DNA from: a virus
Length of the DNA: 24,963 bases
Strand: one strand, 5' to 3'
Virus record (IMG/VR): IMGVR_UViG_3300017585_000072
Location: 1-24,963 of that record
Shown here: positions 1-7,923 of the stretch, in pieces
How the letters are laid out: every line of letters starts with the position of its first letter
How positions within the stretch are numbered: position 1 is the stretch's first letter
The notes under the pieces: generated by a model
Told to the model about the DNA's origin: nothing
Database searches by the model: none
Seen by the model: only the letters and a program-made list of their open reading frames with translations
Position numbers and translations under genes: made by a program

Positions 1-765
1 GCCTTTGATAGCTTCATCAGTATATGCCTTAGCCCCATAAATCGTGCTCGCGGAAGCAGCATCTGTCGCGCTACCTACAACCGCGGTCTTCGCAGAATTA
101 GCAGCACCTGCCGCGTCATATGCGGAGCTCTCGGTATAAGCAGCCGTACCTAGACCATGTACAGCCACGTCGACGCCGTTTACCGCGATTGTACCATTAG
201 TAGTGCCTTCTTTAATATTAGATGCTTGTAATGCGCTATCTGCTTTATCTAGCGAAGCCTGTATATCTGTTGTTAATTTAGCTTTTGACACTCCGCCGTC
301 CACTAAACTAGCACTAATTATTCTATTATTATTATCTACAACAATTTGGACTTCGGTTGCTCCTTCTTGTTCTTTATAAATATCAACAAGCGAGCCAACA
401 TTAATATAAATTTTATCTTTGTTTGCATTAGCAAGCGTTAATACAAGATATGTTCCTGCGTCCATCCCAGCTGGATCAACTTCCACGGCGCCTTCCGTGA
501 CAACCATATCTTTAGGAATATTAATAGTAACAATCGTTTTATCATCTTGAATTAAGGTATAGCTTTTAGCGTAATCTGTAGGAGAAGATTCAACTACTGT
601 CACTACTGCTGATGTATCAACCTCATTTATTGCAGCAACTAAATCACTTTTAGCTGTTGTAGTTAAATCATTCAGGGAGCCTATCTTGCTTTCCACTTCA
701 GTGATATCTGCCGCGGTACCACCGGCTCCCGCGTTCTTACCTAATATGTATGCAAGTATATCCAT
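1..765 (-). CDS. tail fibre / receptor-binding structural protein, N-terminal ~255 aa (C-terminus lies beyond window start)
   Basis: Not in the ORF track. Found by hand: ATG at 765-763 (rc), frame open to position 1. MDILAYILGKNAGAGGTAADITEVESKIGSLNDLTTTAKSDLVAAINEV... followed by Ala/Thr/Ser-rich Ig-like segments (VAVHGLGTAAYTESSAYDAAGAANSAKTAVVGSATDAASAS) typical of Firmicutes phage fibres. Its ATG overlaps the upstream small ORF's stop (TAATG). Confidence 0.55.
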   Translation of the reverse strand, partial: MDILAYILGKNAGAGGTAADITEVESKIGSLNDLTTTAKSDLVAAINEVDTSAVVTVVESSPTDYAKSYTLIQDDKTIVTINIPKDMVVTEGAVEVDPAGMDAGTYLVLTLANANKDKIYINVGSLVDIYKEQEGATEVQIVVDNNNRIISASLVDGGVSKAKLTTDIQASLDKADSALQASNIKEGTTNGTIAVNGVDVAVHGLGTAAYTESSAYDAAGAANSAKTAVVGSATDAASASTIYGAKAYTDEAIKG

Positions 766-944
766 TATAATTTGCTCCAAACTTTTTGATTATTTAACAT
801 ATATACATTGGAGGTTGCAACTACAATGCAAGTACTTCCAGGTTGCACTGAAGTAGGAAGTTCTGCAATATCTTCTTCAGAATCTGCAACAAATTGAGTT
901 ACATACACTCCAATATGGTCATTCTGTTGCATTACATTGTACAT
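765..944 (-). CDS. small hypothetical protein (59 aa), translationally coupled to the fibre gene
   Basis: rc ORF MYNVMQQNDHIGVYVTQFVADSEEDIAELPTSVQPGSTCIVVATSNVYMLNNQKVWSKL. RBS AAAGAGAGGG about 7 nt upstream of ATG 944-942. Stop TAA overlaps the fibre ATG. Under the 60-aa track cutoff. Confidence 0.4.
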   Translation of the reverse strand: MYNVMQQNDHIGVYVTQFVADSEEDIAELPTSVQPGSTCIVVATSNVYMLNNQKVWSKL

Positions 945-962
945 TCTATTCCCTCTCTTTCT

Positions 963-2153
963 TTAATATTCGCATTCTAGCCCATATCTGGACATTACTG
1001 CTTTTGACATATTAACAATTTTCTTTACATTATATTCACGAATAAACCATTTTGAGTCAGAATTTTTAAACCATCCATAATAAGAGATACACCTATGAGC
1101 TAAACCAATAGGTATTTGTTTATTAAATTGCGCATATTGAAGATAAGCTTTTAAATAAGTTCTTCTTGCACGCAAGAATATTCCTGCTCTAACCTCAGTA
1201 TGGTCTCTATAAATAACATATCCCATCATATCTATAGGTCTTCCGTGCCTTTTAACTTTCCCATTTTTGTCCAATTCCATCCAATCTATTGGAAATATCT
1301 CCCAATTAGATTTAACCTCTAGCCCCAATGGACCCTCTAAATATTCTATTAAGCCTTTCATAGCTTCAATAACCAGTTCTTTATCTGCACCAAGTATAAT
1401 AAAATCATCCATATAGAATAATACCATAGAAAAATATCCACTATATGATTCATATAGGTAGTTATAGGCAAACGATAAAAAATAATTACATAAAAATTGA
1501 CTTAAATAAGAGCCAATGGAAAGACCAGATTTAAAAGTATCAATTAAGAAAAATAATAAATAAAGTAAATCTTCATTATCCGTATCTTTCCACAATTTGG
1601 CTTTCAGTATATCCTTATTAATTGATGGGTAACATTTATGTATATCACCCTTCGCTCCATATCGCGCGGTTTCAGGGTGTTTCCGCATTCTTATTTCAAG
1701 TAATTCTTTTCCATATACTTGACCGCGGCCTTGGATACTAGCGCATTGATATGGCTGTATCCTGTGGCTCCAGATTTCCCATCCAGCAACAACCGCGATA
1801 TGGTCAAGTATTTGGTGTTCTATTGATTGAATACCTATCTCTCTTAATTTTCCGGAATTACCATCAAATCTTTTAACATATTTAATAGGAGGAACAGATA
1901 ATTGTCTGTTTTTGATTTTCCAGATTATAGAATCTGCTATAGTATACAGAGTAGGTTTCAATAGCATATCTCGCATTGGATTATTTATCAACGCGAGAAC
2001 TTCCTTATCAGAATAACTAGGTAAGAAAGAACTAATATATGAAACAATATCTCTTCTAGTCCATTTTCCTTTGAAGCAGTCTTTTATACAATCATACACC
2101 GCTTTGGTGTCGTACATTATTTTAGCCGCGTCTCTTGCGTAGTGATGAACCAT
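963..2153 (-). CDS. DGR reverse transcriptase
   Basis: 396 aa. RT motif 4 reads GLSIGSYLSQF, the DGR-specific [IV]GxxxSQ variant of QGxxxSP. Motif 5 YMDDFIILG. Motif 3 GDIHKCYPSI (DIxK.FxSI type). Lies 310 nt downstream of the TR on the same strand. Confidence 0.9.
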   Translation of the reverse strand: MVHHYARDAAKIMYDTKAVYDCIKDCFKGKWTRRDIVSYISSFLPSYSDKEVLALINNPMRDMLLKPTLYTIADSIIWKIKNRQLSVPPIKYVKRFDGNSGKLREIGIQSIEHQILDHIAVVAGWEIWSHRIQPYQCASIQGRGQVYGKELLEIRMRKHPETARYGAKGDIHKCYPSINKDILKAKLWKDTDNEDLLYLLFFLIDTFKSGLSIGSYLSQFLCNYFLSFAYNYLYESYSGYFSMVLFYMDDFIILGADKELVIEAMKGLIEYLEGPLGLEVKSNWEIFPIDWMELDKNGKVKRHGRPIDMMGYVIYRDHTEVRAGIFLRARRTYLKAYLQYAQFNKQIPIGLAHRCISYYGWFKNSDSKWFIREYNVKKIVNMSKAVMSRYGLECEY

Positions 2154-2462
2154 GAAAAGTTACTCTCACTTTAAAATAATGAAAGTTTTTTAATAAAAGA
2201 TTGATTTTTATTATACTGACCTTCAGCTTTTGTTTCAAAAAGCTAAGCTTATACAACTTTATAAAAAGAGTAAGTTGCATTGGGCTCCTTATTTTCGCAA
2301 ATTTTGAATCAAATATTCAGAGCTATTCGACAATAATATAATTATTATCCGCGGCCTTTCCAGGGCGGTCAATGGCCATTTCGTATAATCAAATACAGAA
2401 TAGTTCTATTTCTAATTTTTGTGCCGTCTATAAGCACTCTAACTACTCTTTAAGTTAAAGTT

Positions 2463-2564
2463 CCGTGACAGGATGTTCCAGTTGGCATTACCGACACCAT
2501 TGTTCGCGTTCAGATTCCAGAGACCATCAATCGCCCCATTGTTCAGGTTCCCGAACGAAAGCCA
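2463..2564 (-). repeat. DGR template repeat (TR), 102 bp, non-coding
   Basis: 102-bp near-identical copy of 3174-3275. Read on the minus strand it is AAC-rich: tgg ctt tcg ttc ggg aac ctg aac aat ggg gcg att gat ggt ctc tgg aat ctg aac gcg aac aat ggt gtc ggt aat gcc aac tgg aac atc ctg tca cgg. Sits between the accessory ORFs and the RT. Confidence 0.9.
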
Positions 2565-2644
2565 AGGGTTTCCTGCGCCATGACCCTCATTTATAAAGTT
2601 AAGTTAATAAAATTATCTATCTTGAACTAAGAAACTTTGATTAT

Positions 2645-2758
2645 TTAATCAAGTGTCCTTTCTTCTAGTATTTTTTGCACCTGTTCTTTTAAGGATGTAG
2701 GCACATCATCCAAGGTCTTAAGGCCTTTAAGAATTAAATTTGCATATATTTTTGCCAT
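2645..2758 (-). CDS. small helical hypothetical protein (37 aa)
   Basis: rc ORF MAKIYANLILKGLKTLDDVPTSLKEQVQKILEERTLD. ATG is 2 nt after the stop of the 116-aa gene. GGAAGGA lies 14 nt upstream. Not in the track (too short). Confidence 0.35.
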   Translation of the reverse strand: MAKIYANLILKGLKTLDDVPTSLKEQVQKILEERTLD

Positions 2759-2760
2759 AA

Positions 2761-3111
2761 TTAATTTGTTAATCCTTCCAATAATTCATAACAATCACAT
2801 AGAGCTAATTGTGTTTCATCCATTTGAGCTTCTAAATTAGCGATTTTTGTAGGATAATCAACATCCTCTTCTGGCTCAAATTTTAAATAGAAGCTAATAT
2901 TAGCCTCAATAGTTTCTTTTGTTGTTTTTGTTCTAAAAACATTACAATCATATTGATACATTGCCTGAGTAGCTGTACCCTCTTCGGTGGCATCAGTCTC
3001 GATTGTGATTATCTGCTCATTAGAACAGATAATCACATCGGCATATTCGCTATCAGGAAGAGAATAATAACTCAATTCAGGCTGTTGTACAGGTGAAATC
3101 ATAGTTGTCAT
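2761..3111 (-). CDS. acidic 116-aa protein in the position where DGRs normally carry avd; not Avd-like
   Basis: AGGAGG 10 nt upstream of ATG 3111. Net charge about -19 (16 E, 8 D, 4 K, 1 R). No resemblance to the basic four-helix-bundle Avd. Confidence 0.6.
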   Translation of the reverse strand: MTTMISPVQQPELSYYSLPDSEYADVIICSNEQIITIETDATEEGTATQAMYQYDCNVFRTKTTKETIEANISFYLKFEPEEDVDYPTKIANLEAQMDETQLALCDCYELLEGLTN

Positions 3112-3137
3112 TATTTTATATCCTCCTATTGTTTATT

Positions 3138-4868
3138 TTAACTTAAGGGGTTCGCCATACCATTAGGAGATAGCCGTGACAGGAAGCTCCAGTAGGCATA
3201 ACCGACACCAATGTCCGCGTCCAGACGCCAGAGACCAGCAATCGCCCCATAGGCCAGGCCCCCGAACGAAAGCCACTCTCTCTGACCACTAGTTCCAGCG
3301 TCACAGTAACATCCGTCACAGAATCCTGTAGCAGAAGAAGCATTTTTTGCCGTAGGCACCATAATACCATTACTTAGGTCAATAGCACATTCAGAAATGT
3401 ACTTCCAAGCAGCTTCATTTCCAGGTATAGTAGCAGAGCATTTAGCCCAATCAGAGCTAGATTGAATAGTAGCAATAGTAGTTGTTAATGCTGTAGCGTC
3501 ATGGCATACATAGACATTTCTAACAACATTACTACTGCTATCTGTAGTAATATCCATTACCACGTTACCTAAGACTTCATAGCCGCCGACCATACATTCG
3601 ATTCCGCCCAATACAAATGGATGGACATTATCAACTTTATAAGCCCCATTAATACAAACGCCGTCCATATCTAGCACGTTATCACAGCTACCAGATATCC
3701 AAGGCATTGTAGAAATTCTACAAGATGTGGTCGTAGTAATATTATCAATAGTAGTTCCATCTATTTCAGCTAAAGTAATTAAAGAATTACTTGTATCTCC
3801 TGATAGTGGCTCAATAGACTTAATAACTTTGCTAAATGCTAAGTTGTGTGTTTCTTTATAATATCTATCATATCCGCTACTATTAGAGCAATCGCCAACA
3901 GATACTGTAGATCCCACTACATAGCTATTTGCATTAGAGGTTGAAATTACGATACCAGGGTAGGTTCCCGCAATAGAGCATAATGCTTGACTACTATAAG
4001 AACTACATCCACCAAAAATACTTTGTGAATTAAGAGTAGCGTATTTAATCATAAATTGCAACTGAAGGAAGAATTGGTCCATAGCAGTTTCGCCGCAGTA
4101 AAAATTATTAATGCCATGGCAAAAACTAATCAATCCACTATAAGAAATATTTGTAGGAGTAGGTTGTCCCTGACTATAAGAAATAGGCACATAGCCGCTA
4201 GCACTAATAGGCTTTCCATCAGAAGTTCTACCCATTACATATTTAGAGTGAACCATGAATCCATAAGAAGTTTTATCTGGTCCAATACATTCAGGAAGAA
4301 TAGTATAACCATCATAAGCTTTATCAGTTACAGATACATACCAATATCCGCTCTCGCTCCATGTCTTTACATACCAAGGAGCATTTAATACACCCACTTG
4401 TCCATTAGAGCCATCCCTAGCAAAGTCTGTTTGTCCATCAATGGCTTTTAAAACAATATGACCATCAGTAGAATCTAATTCCCAATTACAATCAATAGCT
4501 TTAAACATCGGAATATTGCTATAGTCGTTTGTATTTTTAACAGTTAAAGTAGAAGGCTTGCAAACAAGCCCTGCATTGTCATCAGTCTTTGTTCCCAAAT
4601 AGCTCGTTGAAGTAGCATATAGAGGAAACTTAGTTGTATAAATCTTACCCGTAGCTTGGGCATTAAAGAAGGCAGCCATGGTTTTATTTAGATTCCCGCC
4701 TAGATAAGCAAGCTCTTCAACACTAGCTTTTACGCCATCTACTTCAGCAGCAATCATTTCCATGTTTCTACCATCATCTAGTATAACATATTGTCCTTCA
4801 GCACCTAAATTCACGGTACGGAAAGAACCATCGGAGTCTTTGACCCTCATTTTTCTTGCTACACTCAT
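3138..4868 (-). CDS. DGR variable (target) protein, probable receptor-binding/tail protein with a C-terminal VR
   Basis: The track ORF starts at 4898 (MNKKIKKENTMSVARK). AAGGAG sits 7 nt before the second ATG (4868-4866), so MSVARK is the likelier start. C-terminus ...REWLSFGGLAYGAIAGLWRLDADIGVGYAYWSFLSRLSPNGMANPLS is encoded by the VR. Confidence 0.85.
   Translation of the reverse strand: MSVARKMRVKDSDGSFRTVNLGAEGQYVILDDGRNMEMIAAEVDGVKASVEELAYLGGNLNKTMAAFFNAQATGKIYTTKFPLYATSTSYLGTKTDDNAGLVCKPSTLTVKNTNDYSNIPMFKAIDCNWELDSTDGHIVLKAIDGQTDFARDGSNGQVGVLNAPWYVKTWSESGYWYVSVTDKAYDGYTILPECIGPDKTSYGFMVHSKYVMGRTSDGKPISASGYVPISYSQGQPTPTNISYSGLISFCHGINNFYCGETAMDQFFLQLQFMIKYATLNSQSIFGGCSSYSSQALCSIAGTYPGIVISTSNANSYVVGSTVSVGDCSNSSGYDRYYKETHNLAFSKVIKSIEPLSGDTSNSLITLAEIDGTTIDNITTTTSCRISTMPWISGSCDNVLDMDGVCINGAYKVDNVHPFVLGGIECMVGGYEVLGNVVMDITTDSSSNVVRNVYVCHDATALTTTIATIQSSSDWAKCSATIPGNEAAWKYISECAIDLSNGIMVPTAKNASSATGFCDGCYCDAGTSGQREWLSFGGLAYGAIAGLWRLDADIGVGYAYWSFLSRLSPNGMANPLS
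3174..3275 (-). repeat. DGR variable repeat (VR) inside the 3' end of the target gene
   Basis: Aligns without gaps to TR 2463-2564. 15 mismatches, all where the TR coding strand has A (plus-strand T). The last 13 nt (cctgtcacgg end) are identical. Confidence 0.9.
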
Positions 4869-4982
4869 AGTATTCTCCTTTTTTATCTTTTTATTCAACG
4901 AAAAATAACCTTTTCTCGTCGTTCTATGATATATAAAAAATCTTTTTTATGTCTAAATCAACCTTGTCCAAAAGAATTTTAA

Positions 4983-5011
4983 TTGATTTTCCTGAAAATT
5001 TTTGGTATAAT
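4983..5011 (+). promoter_or_regulatory. sigma-A type promoter P1 (TTGATT, 17 bp, TGgTATAAT)
   Basis: -35 TTGATT 4983-4988. Extended -10 TG 5003-5004 and TATAAT 5006-5011. Followed by AGAAGGA RBS and ATG 5040. Confidence 0.7.
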
Positions 5012-5039
5012 ATATGTAAAAGAAAGAAGGATGACAACT

Positions 5040-5885
5040 ATGAGTAACAAGCAATATTGGGGAGATAGAAGTCGTCAAGTGACAAGAGCTAAAATGCACA
5101 CTAAAGAAATGCAAGAACAATTTGCATCTGAAATTGAAGCATCTATAGCTAATTCTTATGCCGCTACGGTTCTATCTTTTCCTACCTCACTACAAAAGAC
5201 AAACGATTTAATGCGCTTAGAGCTGTGGCTAAACGATTTAAATACAACTGATGCTTTATTCAAGCATTATAGCCCAAATGAAAAAATTGCAGTATTAAAT
5301 TTCGCCTCCTTTGTGAAGCCAGGTGGTATGTTCTTGCAAGGCTCAACAGCACAAGAAGAGTCTATTTGCCATGATTCATACCTCTATAACGTATTATCAG
5401 CATTTGAGGACTGGTATAAAGAAAATACTGTCTTTATTAATGATAAGCTATTCGCTGATAGAATGTTATACTGCAAAGATATATATTTCTTTAAGAAAAA
5501 TGATTTAAGCAATCCCATTTCCGCAGATGTAATCACTTGCGCTGCTCCAAATATTAAGGGAGCCGTAAAAATTCAGGGACTAGATAAAATAAATTTATAT
5601 CTCCGCAATTCAAAAGCACTAGATACTAGAATTCAATTTATCCTAGATTCCGCAGAATATAATCATATAAACACCCTTATTTTAGGAGCATGGGGATGTG
5701 GAGTATTTGGTCAAGACCCTGTAGAAGTAGCAAGTCTTTTTAAGAAACACCTTTGTAGAACTTACACTTATTTAAAGAAAGTTGTTTTTGCAATTCCTTT
5801 TAACGCAAACGACTTTAACCTATATGGTTTTTATAAAGTGTTTCAAAATAAGGAGTTAATCAATGAGTCATTATATAGCAACTGA
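5040..5885 (+). CDS. bacterial-type poly(ADP-ribose) glycohydrolase-like macrodomain protein (DUF2263/TIGR02452 family)
   Basis: NFASFVKPGGMFLQGSTAQEESICHDSYLYN matches the PARG GGG-X6-8-QEE signature (PGG-x8-QEE). LILGAWGCGVFGQDP matches the family's second block. Track start 4983 is a TTG; ATG 5040 has the RBS. Confidence 0.65.
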   Translation: MSNKQYWGDRSRQVTRAKMHTKEMQEQFASEIEASIANSYAATVLSFPTSLQKTNDLMRLELWLNDLNTTDALFKHYSPNEKIAVLNFASFVKPGGMFLQGSTAQEESICHDSYLYNVLSAFEDWYKENTVFINDKLFADRMLYCKDIYFFKKNDLSNPISADVITCAAPNIKGAVKIQGLDKINLYLRNSKALDTRIQFILDSAEYNHINTLILGAWGCGVFGQDPVEVASLFKKHLCRTYTYLKKVVFAIPFNANDFNLYGFYKVFQNKELINESLYSN

Positions 5886-6639
5886 TTTGCATGGTGAATA
5901 CAAACTTTGGGAACGAATAAGAGATTATTTAAAACCTAATGATGTTCTTTATTTCTTAGGAGACGCCGCAGACAGAGGTCCCGATGGGTTAAAAATTATG
6001 AGAGAATTACTTTCCAATCCAAGAGTAGTTTATCTAAAAGGCAACCATGAAGAACTCCTTATTAATACTATAAAAGAATGGCTAGACCTTTCTTCGTGTT
6101 CTGATTATCCCCATAAACGTCAGAGCGCGCAGTCTCTACATCTAGCCAATGGAGGTCAAGCTACCCAAGAAGATTTACTTCCAGGCTCCCATATAGAATG
6201 GGAATGGTATCTTCGCCAACTAGAAAATTTACCAGAAATTATAACTGTCACATCTCAAAATACTGGTAAAATAGTATGCTTGTCTCATGCTGGGTGTGAC
6301 CCAATAGATATAGGAAATAATACTTTTAAAAATAAATTTAATCAGCCTCTTCACGATAAGGATGGACCAAATCTGTGGCTCTGGAATAGGGAACATTTAA
6401 TCCAACCTTGGCCGCAAGAATCCCGCTTTGAAAACCTTTACATTATTCATGGCCACACTCCAGTTCCCGCATTGGGTTATATTTCTTGCATTGATTATCC
6501 AGACCCAGACAAGACAAAAGAAATATTCATTTATGCTGATGGCCATAAGATTGACCTAGACTTACTATCTTTCCAAACTAAGAAAGCAGTACTATATAAT
6601 CTAGATAATATGGAGGTGGAAAAATATTTCAATGAGTAA
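5863..6639 (+). CDS. calcineurin-like metallophosphoesterase (Ser/Thr phosphatase-like)
   Basis: DLHGE, GDAADRG, GNHE motifs. AGGAG 8 nt upstream. Confidence 0.7.
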   Translation: MSHYIATDLHGEYKLWERIRDYLKPNDVLYFLGDAADRGPDGLKIMRELLSNPRVVYLKGNHEELLINTIKEWLDLSSCSDYPHKRQSAQSLHLANGGQATQEDLLPGSHIEWEWYLRQLENLPEIITVTSQNTGKIVCLSHAGCDPIDIGNNTFKNKFNQPLHDKDGPNLWLWNREHLIQPWPQESRFENLYIIHGHTPVPALGYISCIDYPDPDKTKEIFIYADGHKIDLDLLSFQTKKAVLYNLDNMEVEKYFNE

Positions 6640-7636
6640 TGTTATTACTGCAATAGAAGTACATAGAGATATATTATTGAATGATTTAAACTATTCTCCA
6701 AAATCTATTCTGGGAGTATTCTGCTATGGCTCCCAAAATTATGGTTTAGCTAATAAAAATAGCGATGTAGATACTGTAGCCATCTATCTTCCTACTTTTG
6801 AAGAAATGTGTCTCTGTAAAGAAAGATTATCAAAAGAATTTCATCTTCCTAATGGAGAACACATTGTTATAAAAGATATAAGAGAATATTCAGATATGCT
6901 TTCAAAGCAGAACATCAATTTCCTAGAAACTCTTTACACCCAATTTTACTGGCTAAATGATGAGTATGCTCAAATATTCACAGAGCTATTTATCAATAAA
7001 AGAGATATTTACTCTTCTTTAAATATTAAAAAGATGTATACATCAATAGCAGGACAAATTATTCATACTGTTAAGCAAGATCCAGCAGATAATAAAAAAT
7101 TAAGTAACGGGTATAGATTGCTATATTTATTGGAGAACTTTGAAAAAACTCATGATTACGAATCTAGTTTATCGCCCATTGGTAAAGAGCATGATTTTCT
7201 ATGGAATTTAAAATATAATAAAAGTAGCTACACCGAAAAAGAAAAACTTGATATGGCTTATGCTATAATTGATAAGGCCTTGGCTTACCAACAAAATTAT
7301 TCTTCTTTAAAGACAACTGAGGCGGGGACCGCCCTACGCGCCCTCCAGACCGCGACTGTGGAGATTTTAAGGAAGGCTTGCGCGATAAATACGCCCCGCC
7401 TTACGCGGGTGGAATTTGAGCAGTATTTAACTAACGCGGAATCTACTGCTTTAGTGGCATTAATGCAGTCAGTTTATCCAGAAGGCAATATATCAATTAA
7501 TAAAGCTATAGAGCAATATCACATTTCCCGCCCTGTATTTACTTCTCTATTGGAAAAAATGGAAAAGTATGACATGGCAGAAATTAAAAAACAAGGTGTA
7601 AAAGGCACATACATTAAATTTAAGGAGACAAAGTAA
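6632..7636 (+). CDS. Pol-beta superfamily nucleotidyltransferase-domain protein with helical C-terminal domain
   Basis: CYGSQNYGLANKNSDVDTVAIYLP is a GS-x9-DxD minimal NTase motif. KNTase/Lnu-like two-domain layout. Contains an atypically GC-rich codon block at 7319-7420. Confidence 0.55.
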   Translation: MSNVITAIEVHRDILLNDLNYSPKSILGVFCYGSQNYGLANKNSDVDTVAIYLPTFEEMCLCKERLSKEFHLPNGEHIVIKDIREYSDMLSKQNINFLETLYTQFYWLNDEYAQIFTELFINKRDIYSSLNIKKMYTSIAGQIIHTVKQDPADNKKLSNGYRLLYLLENFEKTHDYESSLSPIGKEHDFLWNLKYNKSSYTEKEKLDMAYAIIDKALAYQQNYSSLKTTEAGTALRALQTATVEILRKACAINTPRLTRVEFEQYLTNAESTALVALMQSVYPEGNISINKAIEQYHISRPVFTSLLEKMEKYDMAEIKKQGVKGTYIKFKETK

Positions 7637-7923
7637 TGAGCAGAAGAAAAATAATTGCCGCGATCTCTATTACTATTGGTTGCGGAGTGGCACTTGTATT
7701 ATCTGGTTGCTCAGAAAGCCTAAAAAGAGAAGCTAAAACCATAACAAGTGAATATACTGGAGGACTGAATCGAACTGTAACAGTATATGATTATAATGGC
7801 AAGAAGATAGATTCCTGGACAGGAAAGTTTGATGTTACAGAGTCTGAATCTGAAGTTTCCTTTGATATAGACGGCAAACGAGTTATTATTCAAGGTGGAA
7901 TTGTTATTAATGAAGAGAACTAA
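7636..7923 (+). CDS. small lipoprotein (signal peptide, LSGC lipobox)
   Basis: MSRRKIIAAISITIGCGVALVLSGCSE... AAGGAGA RBS. Confidence 0.55.
   Translation: MSRRKIIAAISITIGCGVALVLSGCSESLKREAKTITSEYTGGLNRTVTVYDYNGKKIDSWTGKFDVTESESEVSFDIDGKRVIIQGGIVINEEN

What the first reader, a model, noticed from the sequence alone, without database searches (positions are those of the whole stretch)
2645..3111. DGR has no Avd; the avd slot holds a highly acidic 116-aa protein and a 37-aa helical ORF
Canonical DGRs carry a basic four-helix-bundle Avd between the target and the TR. Here the slot holds a 116-aa protein with net charge about -19, which cannot be a nucleic-acid-binding Avd. It is followed 2 nt later by a 37-aa Lys/Leu-rich ORF (MAKIYANLILKGLKTLDDVPTSLKEQVQKILEERTLD). 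Either this element uses a non-Avd accessory factor, or these are fibre-assembly proteins and the RT acts without a partner.
Basis: partly seen in the sequence, partly recalled or inferred. Interest (0 to 1): 0.6.

Follow-up and report, generated by a model that had tools for sequence, protein, structure and literature searches.

The report
Tail-fibre helper genes inside Avd-less DGR
The two small genes between the target and the template of this phage's mutagenic retroelement are most likely the helper-gene pair that follows tail-fibre genes in many Gram-positive phages, not a replacement for the missing Avd protein; the retroelement is nonetheless demonstrably active.

Summary
On the minus strand lie the target (3138-4898, VR 3174-3275), a 116-aa protein (2761-3111; net charge -18, pI 4.05), a 37-aa ORF 2 nt later (2645-2758), the TR (2463-2564) and the RT (963-2153). 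No Avd was found in about 32 kb.

The DGR is active. Two assemblies of this phage differ at 15 sites in 11.5 kb, and 14 of these are VR positions opposite TR adenines.

The 37-aa ORF is a CD1375-family mini-protein. The 116-aa protein belongs to an unnamed family. Its confident model (pLDDT 88) is beta strands plus one long C-terminal helix, not a four-helix bundle.

Its C-terminal helix motif recurs in small acidic proteins that sit between a fibre gene and a CD1375/XkdX-like gene. These occur in phages with Avd, without Avd, and with no DGR. In a sister family, 78 of 80 loci keep the mini-ORF partner, and half have no RT within the up to 10 kb held on each side.

The TR-RT unit therefore sits either before or after this pair. 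The pair most likely assists or decorates the lectin-tipped fibre. Avd-less DGRs are already documented. A DGR role for the N-terminal domain, which was always found next to an RT, is not excluded.

The parts
3138..4898 (-). DGR target gene: fibre-like protein (586 aa from the TTG start; 576 aa as called in L002) with a lectin-type variable C-terminus
   Evidence: ORF list. PHROG hits phrog_17147 at 6e-101 and tail protein phrog_5302 at 2e-17. Homologous targets lie next to homologous RTs in related loci.
3174..3275 (-). Variable repeat (VR)
   Evidence: 102-bp ungapped match to the TR with 15 mismatches, all at TR adenines. 14 of the 15 differences between the window and L002 fall here, all at TR-adenine positions.
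2761..3111 (-). 116-aa acidic protein. Residues ~1-80 form a beta domain known only from this DGR-phage lineage. Residues ~84-116 form a helix with the motif LExQxxETQLALCDCYE.
2645..2758 (-). 37-aa CD1375-family mini-protein
   Evidence: NF040910 at E 6.9e-13, 48.1 bits against a cut-off of 22.5. phrog_1382 at 1.9e-15.
2463..2564 (-). Template repeat (TR)
   Evidence: Its in-frame translation is not an open reading frame (stops), as expected for a template.
2154..2462 (-). Non-coding spacer between the TR and the RT start. By inference it is part of the DGR RNA.
   Evidence: No plausible ORF. The position corresponds to the TR-RT spacer of canonical DGRs (established knowledge; not tested here).
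963..2153 (-). DGR reverse transcriptase, 396 aa
   Evidence: RVT_1 at 2e-7. phrog_1423 at 2e-62. Bordetella bRT 8ub7 at E 6e-7.
765..944 (-). 59-aa ORF, the N-terminal domain of the next fibre-like gene
   Evidence: In L001 it forms the N-terminus of a single 372-aa fibre-like protein.
1..780 (-). Start of a 274-aa fibre-like ORF that runs off the left end of the window
   Evidence: The complete ORF is at L002 12332-13156. It is homologous to the rest of the L001 372-aa protein.

Best explanation
The 116-aa acidic protein and the 37-aa CD1375-family protein are a two-gene fibre-distal module. Phages of Gram-positive bacteria commonly carry such a module directly behind a receptor-binding or tail-fibre gene. 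Here that gene is the lectin-tipped fibre which the DGR diversifies. By position, and by analogy with experimentally studied neighbours in Clostridioides difficile phages, the pair most likely helps the trimeric fibre fold or assemble, or stays attached to its tip. The long C-terminal helix of the acidic protein would act as the oligomerisation or docking element.

The TR-RT unit is the movable element relative to this backbone. In this phage and its closest relatives it lies after the pair (target-acidic-CD1375-TR-RT). In all other relatives it lies between the fibre gene and the pair (target-TR-RT-acidic-mini-protein).

The DGR belongs to the known class that has no cassette-encoded Avd, and it is active.

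Shown: the gene identities, the two gene orders, the presence of the module with and without a DGR, and DGR activity. Inferred: the chaperone or structural role, and that the RT needs no small partner.
For: (1) The 37-aa ORF scores above the curated cut-off for the CD1375 family.

(2) CD1375-like or XkdX-like mini-genes, each preceded by a small acidic protein (pI 4.1-4.7), follow fibre genes in phages where no RT was detected. In Listeria B054 (gp26-gp28) and Brevibacillus Jimmer1 (gp33-gp35) the mini-gene is CD1375-like. Bacillus Sam46 has the analogous fibre / XkdW-like / 'putative chaperone' layout in gp24-gp26. Neither Listeria nor Brevibacillus nor Bacillus appears among the organism names listed for the 46 phage records that match the RT; 6 records are under names not shown.

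(3) The same arrangement is present in Faecalibacterium phage Brigit, which has an annotated Avd: Avd-RT-target-gp61-CD1375-CD1375.

(4) The C-terminal helix module is shared. BLASTP gives 44% identity over 36 aa with Brigit gp61. phmmer gives 25 bits over residues 61-113 with the 79-aa protein of L105. A profile of the module finds 891 proteins (E<=1), the best 120 at E 2e-13 to 5e-10. hhalign between the two families gives 75.5% probability and E 2.4e-5. The window protein and B054 gp27 hit the same region of phrog_18126.

(5) In the sister family, 78 of 80 viral loci have a CD1375-like ORF directly downstream. 40 have a DGR RT abutting upstream. The other 40 have no RT within the up to 10 kb held on each side (25 of them have at least 8 kb upstream); in 31 of them a fibre-like ORF of 191-1007 aa (22 of them 590-1007 aa) lies directly upstream, and in the three I read it ends in a lectin-type C-terminus.

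(6) In the window the pair stays next to the fibre gene, about 17 kb from the holin and endolysin. This argues for a fibre association rather than a lysis association.

(7) Literature. Including the two short genes after the C. difficile RBP gene raises Avidocin activity (PMC4453579). PtsHN10N reduces aggregation of its RBP (PMC9615553). phiCD508 gp69 and gp70, listed right after the tail fibre gp67 and RBP gp68 and called putative chaperones, were detected in virions (PMC11948020). An XkdW-like protein has a beta N-terminus and a C-terminal coiled coil (PMC8190038).

(8) Avd-less DGRs are common: 26% lack avd, and 75 of 372 have no accessory gene (PMC5758913).

(9) Activity without Avd: 14 of the 15 differences between two assemblies are at TR-adenine positions of the VR.
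Against: All 97 loci that encode the N-terminal domain family of the 116-aa protein also carry the homologous RT next to it. In the commoner gene order its start overlaps the RT 3' end by 32-89 nt in 78 of 85 loci. That would also fit a protein made together with the RT.

Homology to the non-DGR examples is limited to the C-terminal ~35-50 residues and is moderate (hhalign 75%).

No member of either family has been tested experimentally, and I did not verify that PtsN/PtsO or gp69/gp70 are homologues of these two ORFs.

Divergence of the acidic protein tracks the RT and the target about equally (Spearman 0.77 and 0.81), so covariation does not identify the partner.
Confidence: 0.65

Rival explanations
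1. The acidic protein, at least its lineage-specific N-terminal beta domain, is a non-Avd accessory factor of this DGR clade. It would be made with the RT and be needed for cDNA synthesis or retrohoming, for example as an RT-binding or nucleic-acid-mimicking subunit.
For: 97 of 97 loci with this family have the RT adjacent, in two different gene orders. The gene overlaps the RT 3' end by 32-89 nt in 78 of 85 order-B loci. The whole clade lacks a detectable Avd. Wu et al. describe another small acidic candidate accessory protein, CH1, found only in Avd-less DGRs (PMC5758913).
Against: Wherever the contig is long enough, those loci also carry the homologous target, so the association may simply reflect common descent; no recombinant locus separates RT from target. 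In the window the gene is coupled to the target and to the CD1375 gene, and the TR separates it from the RT. Its C-terminal module and its CD1375/XkdX partner occur without any RT and alongside an Avd. It is strongly acidic and matches no known nucleic-acid-binding fold.
Confidence: 0.12
2. The pair belongs to the lysis or late-release functions rather than to the fibre, as its usual position just upstream of holin and endolysin genes in many phages might suggest.
For: In most related loci and in cultured phages the pair is followed by holin and endolysin genes.
Against: In this window the pair lies beside the fibre gene on the minus strand, while the holin-like gene and the endolysin are about 17 kb away on the other strand. 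In L105 and L127 further fibre-like genes follow the pair.
Confidence: 0.06
3. The acidic protein is a DNA-mimic or anti-restriction type of counter-defence protein that happens to sit here.
For: Extreme acidity (pI 4.05). One relative gives a weak hit (E 0.0025) to an anti-restriction PHROG.
Against: It keeps a fixed position in the late structural region, coupled to a CD1375/XkdX gene, across many phage lineages. The PHROG hit is marginal and is seen in only one member. No structural match to known mimics.
Confidence: 0.04

Closest known systems
Avd (accessory variability determinant) of Bordetella phage BPP-1 and other DGRs
   Same: It occupies the position between the target gene and the TR, and it is small (116 aa against 128 aa).
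   Different: Avd is a basic (pI about 9.5) four-helix bundle that forms a pentamer and binds the RT and nucleic acid. This protein has pI 4.05. Its confident model is beta strands plus one long helix. It matches neither an Avd profile nor any solved fold.
CD1375 family (NCBIfam NF040910; Pfam PF23792 CD1375-like) and the short genes after RBP genes of C. difficile phages and diffocins (ptsN/ptsO; phiCD508 gp69/gp70)
   Same: The 37-aa ORF is a member by profile score. It shares the position directly after a receptor-binding or fibre gene and the small size. The C. difficile genes have experimental hints of chaperone-like help for the RBP (PMC4453579, PMC9615553).
   Different: I did not test whether ptsN/ptsO or gp69/gp70 are themselves CD1375-family members. 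That the family name comes from a gene of the diffocin locus is my recollection. No biochemical function is established for the family.
XkdW / XkdX pair of the Bacillus PBSX element and related phages (Pfam PF09636, PF09693)
   Same: The layout is the same: fibre gene, then a small acidic protein of about 95-115 aa with a globular N-terminus and a C-terminal helix, then a mini-protein of about 40 aa. In some relatives of the window phage the mini-protein is a true XkdX member (L067 and FP_Epona gp61).
CH1, the acidic candidate accessory gene of Avd-less DGRs (Wu et al. 2018, PMC5758913)
   Same: A small acidic protein (pI 4.7) with no recognisable motif, found only in DGR cassettes that lack avd.
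   Different: CH1 is 160-169 aa and is confined to Bacteroides-type lineage 3A. The present family is about 100-125 aa and occurs in phages of Lachnospiraceae-type hosts. The sequences could not be compared because the supplement is not held.
Avd-less DGR cassettes (Architecture A of Wu et al. 2018)
   Same: A TR-RT core without an avd, HRDC or MSL gene, with a target carrying a C-terminal lectin-type VR.
   Different: Here two conserved non-DGR genes lie between the target and the TR, which can be mistaken for accessory genes.

Membership tests
Avd (PF05635 / four-helix-bundle DGR accessory protein) | Sequence match to Avd / 23S rRNA-IVP profiles | tested here: not met
   No Pfam or NCBIfam hit for the 116-aa or the 37-aa protein. 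phmmer with the annotated FP_Brigit Avd found nothing.
Avd (PF05635 / four-helix-bundle DGR accessory protein) | All-alpha four-helix bundle fold | tested here: not met
Avd (PF05635 / four-helix-bundle DGR accessory protein) | Basic protein (mean pI about 9.5) | tested here: not met
   pI 4.05, net charge -18.
Avd (PF05635 / four-helix-bundle DGR accessory protein) | Binds the RT and is required for mutagenic retrohoming | not testable with these tools
   Needs biochemistry or genetics.
CD1375 family (NF040910) | Profile score above the curated cut-off over the full length | tested here: met
   48.1 bits against a cut-off of 22.5, E 6.9e-13, residues 1-33 on profile positions 1-33 of 34.
CD1375 family (NF040910) | Mini-protein of about 35-45 aa encoded just downstream of a fibre/RBP gene and a small acidic protein | tested here: met
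   The window layout. The same layout is seen in B054, Jimmer1, Brigit, LBR48 and 78 of 80 sister-family loci.
XkdW (PF09636) | Profile match or fold similarity to PBSX XkdW (2HG7) | tested here: not met
XkdW (PF09636) | Position between a fibre gene and an XkdX-type mini-gene | tested here: met
   Relatives L067 and FP_Epona have a true XkdX gene after the acidic protein. This makes the protein a positional analogue only.
Diversity-generating retroelement | TR/VR pair whose differences are confined to TR adenines | tested here: met
   15 of 15 mismatches are at adenines.
Diversity-generating retroelement | DGR-type reverse transcriptase next to the TR | tested here: met
   RVT_1, phrog_1423 and Bordetella bRT 8ub7.
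Diversity-generating retroelement | Ongoing adenine-specific diversification of the VR | tested here: met
   14 of the 15 differences between the window and L002 over 11,457 bp lie in the VR at TR-adenine positions.
CH1 accessory gene (Wu et al. 2018) | 160-169 aa acidic protein in Bacteroides lineage 3A DGRs; sequence homology | not testable with these tools
   Size and host range differ.

The most novel reading that the evidence does not exclude
The N-terminal beta domain of the 116-aa family was found only beside this clade's RT and usually overlaps its 3' end. It could be a new, acidic, non-Avd partner of an Avd-less DGR reverse transcriptase, grafted onto a generic fibre-module helix. A milder version is that it is a chaperone specialised for folding the hypervariable lectin tips this DGR produces.
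Probability: 0.12. Interest if true: 0.7.

Novelty: new member of a known kind. Interest (0 to 1): 0.3.

Why it matters
The result prevents a mis-annotation. Genes lying between a DGR target and its TR are not necessarily DGR accessory genes. In Gram-positive phages this slot can hold the conserved fibre-distal pair.

It also gives a clean natural example of an Avd-less DGR that is demonstrably active. And it defines a widespread, uncharacterised two-gene module (a small acidic protein with a TQxALCDxYE helix, plus a CD1375/XkdX mini-protein) that accompanies lectin-tipped fibres. This module would need to be carried along when such fibres are engineered or expressed.

Tried and rejected
- Pfam, NCBIfam, PHROG and PDB sequence searches of the 116-aa protein gave nothing significant.
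- The first genome-contig scan found nothing. The second found 5 Lachnospiraceae MAG loci, all with an RT.
- A covariation test (is the acidic protein's divergence tied to the RT or to the target?) was uninformative: Spearman 0.77 against 0.81, and no mosaic pairs.
- My blastn test for TR-like repeats in RT-less loci failed its own positive control (3 of 40 RT loci detected), so it was discarded.
- Exact-match scans of the viral and metagenome collections, meant to extend the genome or collect more VR variants, found nothing.
- The CH1 comparison was impossible because the supplement is not held.
- I considered that the RT carries an Avd-like extension. It is only about 30 aa longer than bRT at each end, so I did not pursue this.

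Full report
**The observation.** The minus strand of window 1-4898 carries a compact block. It holds a 586-aa protein (3138-4898), a 116-aa protein (2761-3111) and a 37-aa ORF (2645-2758, starting 2 nt after the previous stop). A non-coding stretch follows, then a 396-aa reverse transcriptase (963-2153), a 59-aa ORF (765-944) and the start of a further ORF that leaves the window. The 116-aa protein has 23 Asp+Glu and 5 Lys+Arg, giving net charge -18 and pI 4.05.

**The DGR is real and active.** An ungapped 102-bp repeat links 2463-2564 (TR) to 3174-3275 (VR, the 3' end of the 586-aa gene). Its 15 mismatches all lie at 15 of the TR's 24 adenines on the coding strand. The RT matches RVT_1, PHROG 1423 and the Bordetella bRT structure 8ub7.

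A second assembly of the same phage (JGI contig Ga0315757_1000202, locus L002) is identical to the window over 11,457 bp except at 15 positions. Fourteen of these lie within VR positions 3187-3253, each at a TR-adenine position. The fifteenth is a single substitution in the RT gene. This is direct evidence of recent mutagenic retrohoming.

**No Avd was found.**
- The two ORFs have no Avd-type Pfam or NCBIfam hit.
- Twenty further small ORFs of the window and of the 7.2-kb extension in L002 have none either.
- phmmer with the annotated Avd of phage FP_Brigit hits no ORF in the window, in L002 or in any related locus.
- The rest of the genome could not be obtained, so a distant Avd is not formally excluded. 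Wu et al. looked for such distant genes in Avd-less DGR genomes and found none (PMC5758913).

**The 37-aa ORF.** It is a CD1375-family protein: NF040910 scores 48.1 bits against a cut-off of 22.5, E 6.9e-13, and phrog_1382 scores 1.9e-15.

tblastn finds similar mini-genes in phages of Clostridioides, Listeria, Brevibacillus, Lactobacillus, Faecalibacterium and Ruminococcus. In Listeria B054, Brevibacillus Jimmer1 and FP_Brigit the mini-gene follows a fibre or target gene and one small protein, and precedes the lysis genes; in phiCD211 the CD1375-like part is fused to the C-terminus of a 107-aa protein that follows a very large structural gene, with further fibre genes downstream.

**The 116-aa protein.** It has only 4 close relatives and 172 detectable relatives among 5.8 billion proteins. 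None has a Pfam domain or a name beyond 'hypothetical protein'.

**Genomic context of the family.** Every locus I could retrieve that encodes a member also has the homologous DGR RT next to it. Where the contig reaches far enough, it also has the homologous target.

Two gene orders exist.
- Order A, in the window phage and L001-L004: target-acidic-CD1375-TR-RT.
- Order B, in all the others: target-TR-RT-acidic-mini-protein, usually followed by holins and an endolysin.

In order B the acidic gene's start overlaps the RT 3' end by 32-89 nt in 78 of 85 loci. The mini-protein after it is either CD1375-like or a true XkdX-family member.

Three cultured phages show order B with more divergent acidic proteins:

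| Phage | Genes in order |
|---|---|
| Faecalibacterium FP_Epona | gp58 target, gp59 RT, gp60 (87 aa, pI 4.2), gp61 XkdX |
| Butyrivibrio Arawn | gp17-gp20 |
| Lactobacillus LBR48 | gp01 RT, gp02 (136 aa, pI 4.3), gp03 and gp04, both CD1375-like by eye (shared IYA..[VP] motif; not profile-tested) |

**Is the pair tied to the RT or to the fibre?** Perfect co-occurrence with the RT looks like evidence for an accessory role. But the same loci also share the target. Divergence of the acidic protein tracks RT and target about equally (Spearman 0.77 and 0.81), and no recombinant pair separates them. I therefore looked further out.

The C-terminal helix of the 116-aa protein (KIANLEAQMDETQLALCDCYELLEG) recurs in other small acidic proteins that occupy the same slot.
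- FP_Brigit gp61 (66 aa) shares 44% identity over 36 aa. That phage has an annotated Avd, and gp61 follows the DGR target and precedes two CD1375 genes.
- The 79-aa protein of L105 scores 25 bits with phmmer over residues 61-113. It follows a 904-aa fibre-like protein and precedes a 35-aa CD1375-like ORF, and a six-frame search of that locus (6 kb each side) with the window RT (E<=10) found no RT.
- More weakly, Listeria B054 gp27 (113 aa, pI 4.1) and Brevibacillus Jimmer1 gp34 (115 aa, pI 4.6) also carry it.
- A profile of this module finds 891 proteins (E<=1), the best 120 at E 2e-13 to 5e-10.
- hhalign between the two families gives 75.5% probability and E 2.4e-5 over 34 columns.
- The window protein and B054 gp27 hit the same part of phrog_18126.

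**The decisive comparison.** I fetched 80 IMG/VR loci of the sister (79-88 aa) family with up to 10 kb of flank on each side.
- 78 of the 80 have a CD1375-like ORF directly downstream.
- 40 have a DGR RT ending exactly where the small gene starts.
- The other 40 have no RT detectable in the DNA held (up to 10 kb each side; 25 of them have at least 8 kb upstream). In 31 of them a fibre-like ORF of 191-1007 aa (22 of them 590-1007 aa) lies directly upstream.
- In the three RT-less loci whose upstream fibre I read (L105, L127, L142), its C-terminus has the same lectin-type pattern (GGxW...GGRLLYVP) as the DGR targets.

The acidic-protein/CD1375 pair therefore travels with the lectin-tipped fibre, whether or not a DGR is present. 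The TR-RT unit is what comes and goes: between fibre and pair in order B, and after the pair in the window.

In the window the pair also stays with the fibre gene although the holin-like gene and the endolysin are about 17 kb away on the other strand. This argues against a lysis function.

**Likely function (inferred, not shown).** Short genes immediately after receptor-binding genes often encode assembly chaperones.
- In C. difficile, adding the two short genes downstream of the RBP gene increased the activity of a retargeted diffocin (PMC4453579).
- PtsHN10N reduced aggregation of its RBP and stabilised the complex (PMC9615553).
- phiCD508 gp69 and gp70, called putative chaperones and numbered directly after the tail fibre gp67 and the RBP gp68, were detected in virions (PMC11948020).
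- An XkdW-like protein of Bacillus phage Sam46, in the same slot, has a beta-rich N-terminus and a C-terminal coiled coil. Mutations in that helix change plaque type (PMC8190038).

The predicted architecture of the 116-aa protein (beta domain, Pro-containing linker, long amphipathic helix) matches this pattern. I therefore take the pair to be fibre assembly or accessory proteins, at about 65% confidence. I did not verify that the C. difficile genes are homologues of the two window ORFs. Whether the proteins are transient chaperones or remain on the fibre is open.

**Comparison with what is known, and novelty.** DGRs without avd are well documented. Among 372 curated DGRs, 26% lack it and 75 have no accessory gene at all. 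One whole lineage lacks it, and an acidic candidate accessory protein (CH1, 160-169 aa, Bacteroides lineage) has been proposed (PMC5758913).

The cassette here is a further member of the Avd-less kind, with two ordinary phage genes sitting between target and TR. Three things are new in a modest sense:
- the definition of the acidic family and its shared helix module;
- the demonstration that TR-RT occupies alternative positions relative to a conserved fibre-pair backbone;
- the natural evidence for activity of this Avd-less element.

**Residual novel reading.** The lineage-specific N-terminal domain might work with the RT, or might be specialised for hypervariable tips. I rate this at about 12%.

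**Verdict.** Interest is low to moderate (0.3).

Noticed in passing
window 3187-3253 against L002: Two assemblies of the same phage differ at 15 sites in 11.5 kb. 14 of them are VR positions opposite TR adenines, a natural snapshot of DGR activity. The remaining difference is a single substitution at window 1386, inside the RT gene.
   Followed up: yes
window 11457 (ORFs 10449-11465 and 11477-12913): Relative to L002 the window lacks about 52 nt. This splits a single 838-aa gene with major-vault-protein-like domains (MVP_shoulder, faint Vault_3) into two ORFs. It could be a real deletion or frameshift, or an assembly difference. A Band_7/SPFH gene follows (12910-13758).
   Followed up: partly
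window 4983-9931 and L002 13297-14814: There is a cluster of unusual auxiliary genes, identified from the precomputed Pfam hits of L002: PARG-like (PARG_cat_microb), metallophosphatase, RlaP-type nucleotidyltransferase, a Thg1-like tRNA-His guanylyltransferase, and a DUF2828/DUF7788 protein. The window also has an AAA_33 kinase (17989-18477) and an HPr-like protein (17280-17528). Together they suggest RNA repair or counter-defence functions.
   Followed up: no
window 765-944 and 1-780; L001 6712-7830: The 59-aa ORF after the RT and the following 274-aa ORF are one 372-aa fibre-like gene in relative L001. Weakly similar ORFs of about 80 aa lie upstream of the targets in order-B loci (E 0.03-0.5), possibly a shared fibre-attachment domain.
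   Followed up: partly
window 22962-24670 and 24890-24963: Judged from the translations alone, ORFs 22962-23243, 23307-23501 and 23498-24670 look like fragments of one type II topoisomerase/gyrase B-like gene. The last 70 nt of the window read like the start of a GIY-YIG-type homing endonuclease. Neither was tested.
   Followed up: no
L094 3797-4120 (Clostridium phage phiCD211): In phiCD211 the CD1375-like sequence is the C-terminal third of a 107-aa protein (phrog_7546). The N-terminal part of that protein is acidic and helical. This fusion suggests that the small acidic protein and the CD1375 mini-protein act together.
   Followed up: partly
L105, L127 and L142, upstream ORFs ending near 5988, 9979 and 9983: Fibre-like proteins in RT-less loci end in the same lectin-type motif (GGxW...GGRLLYVP) as the DGR targets. 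The same fibre tip therefore exists with and without a diversifying retroelement.
   Followed up: partly
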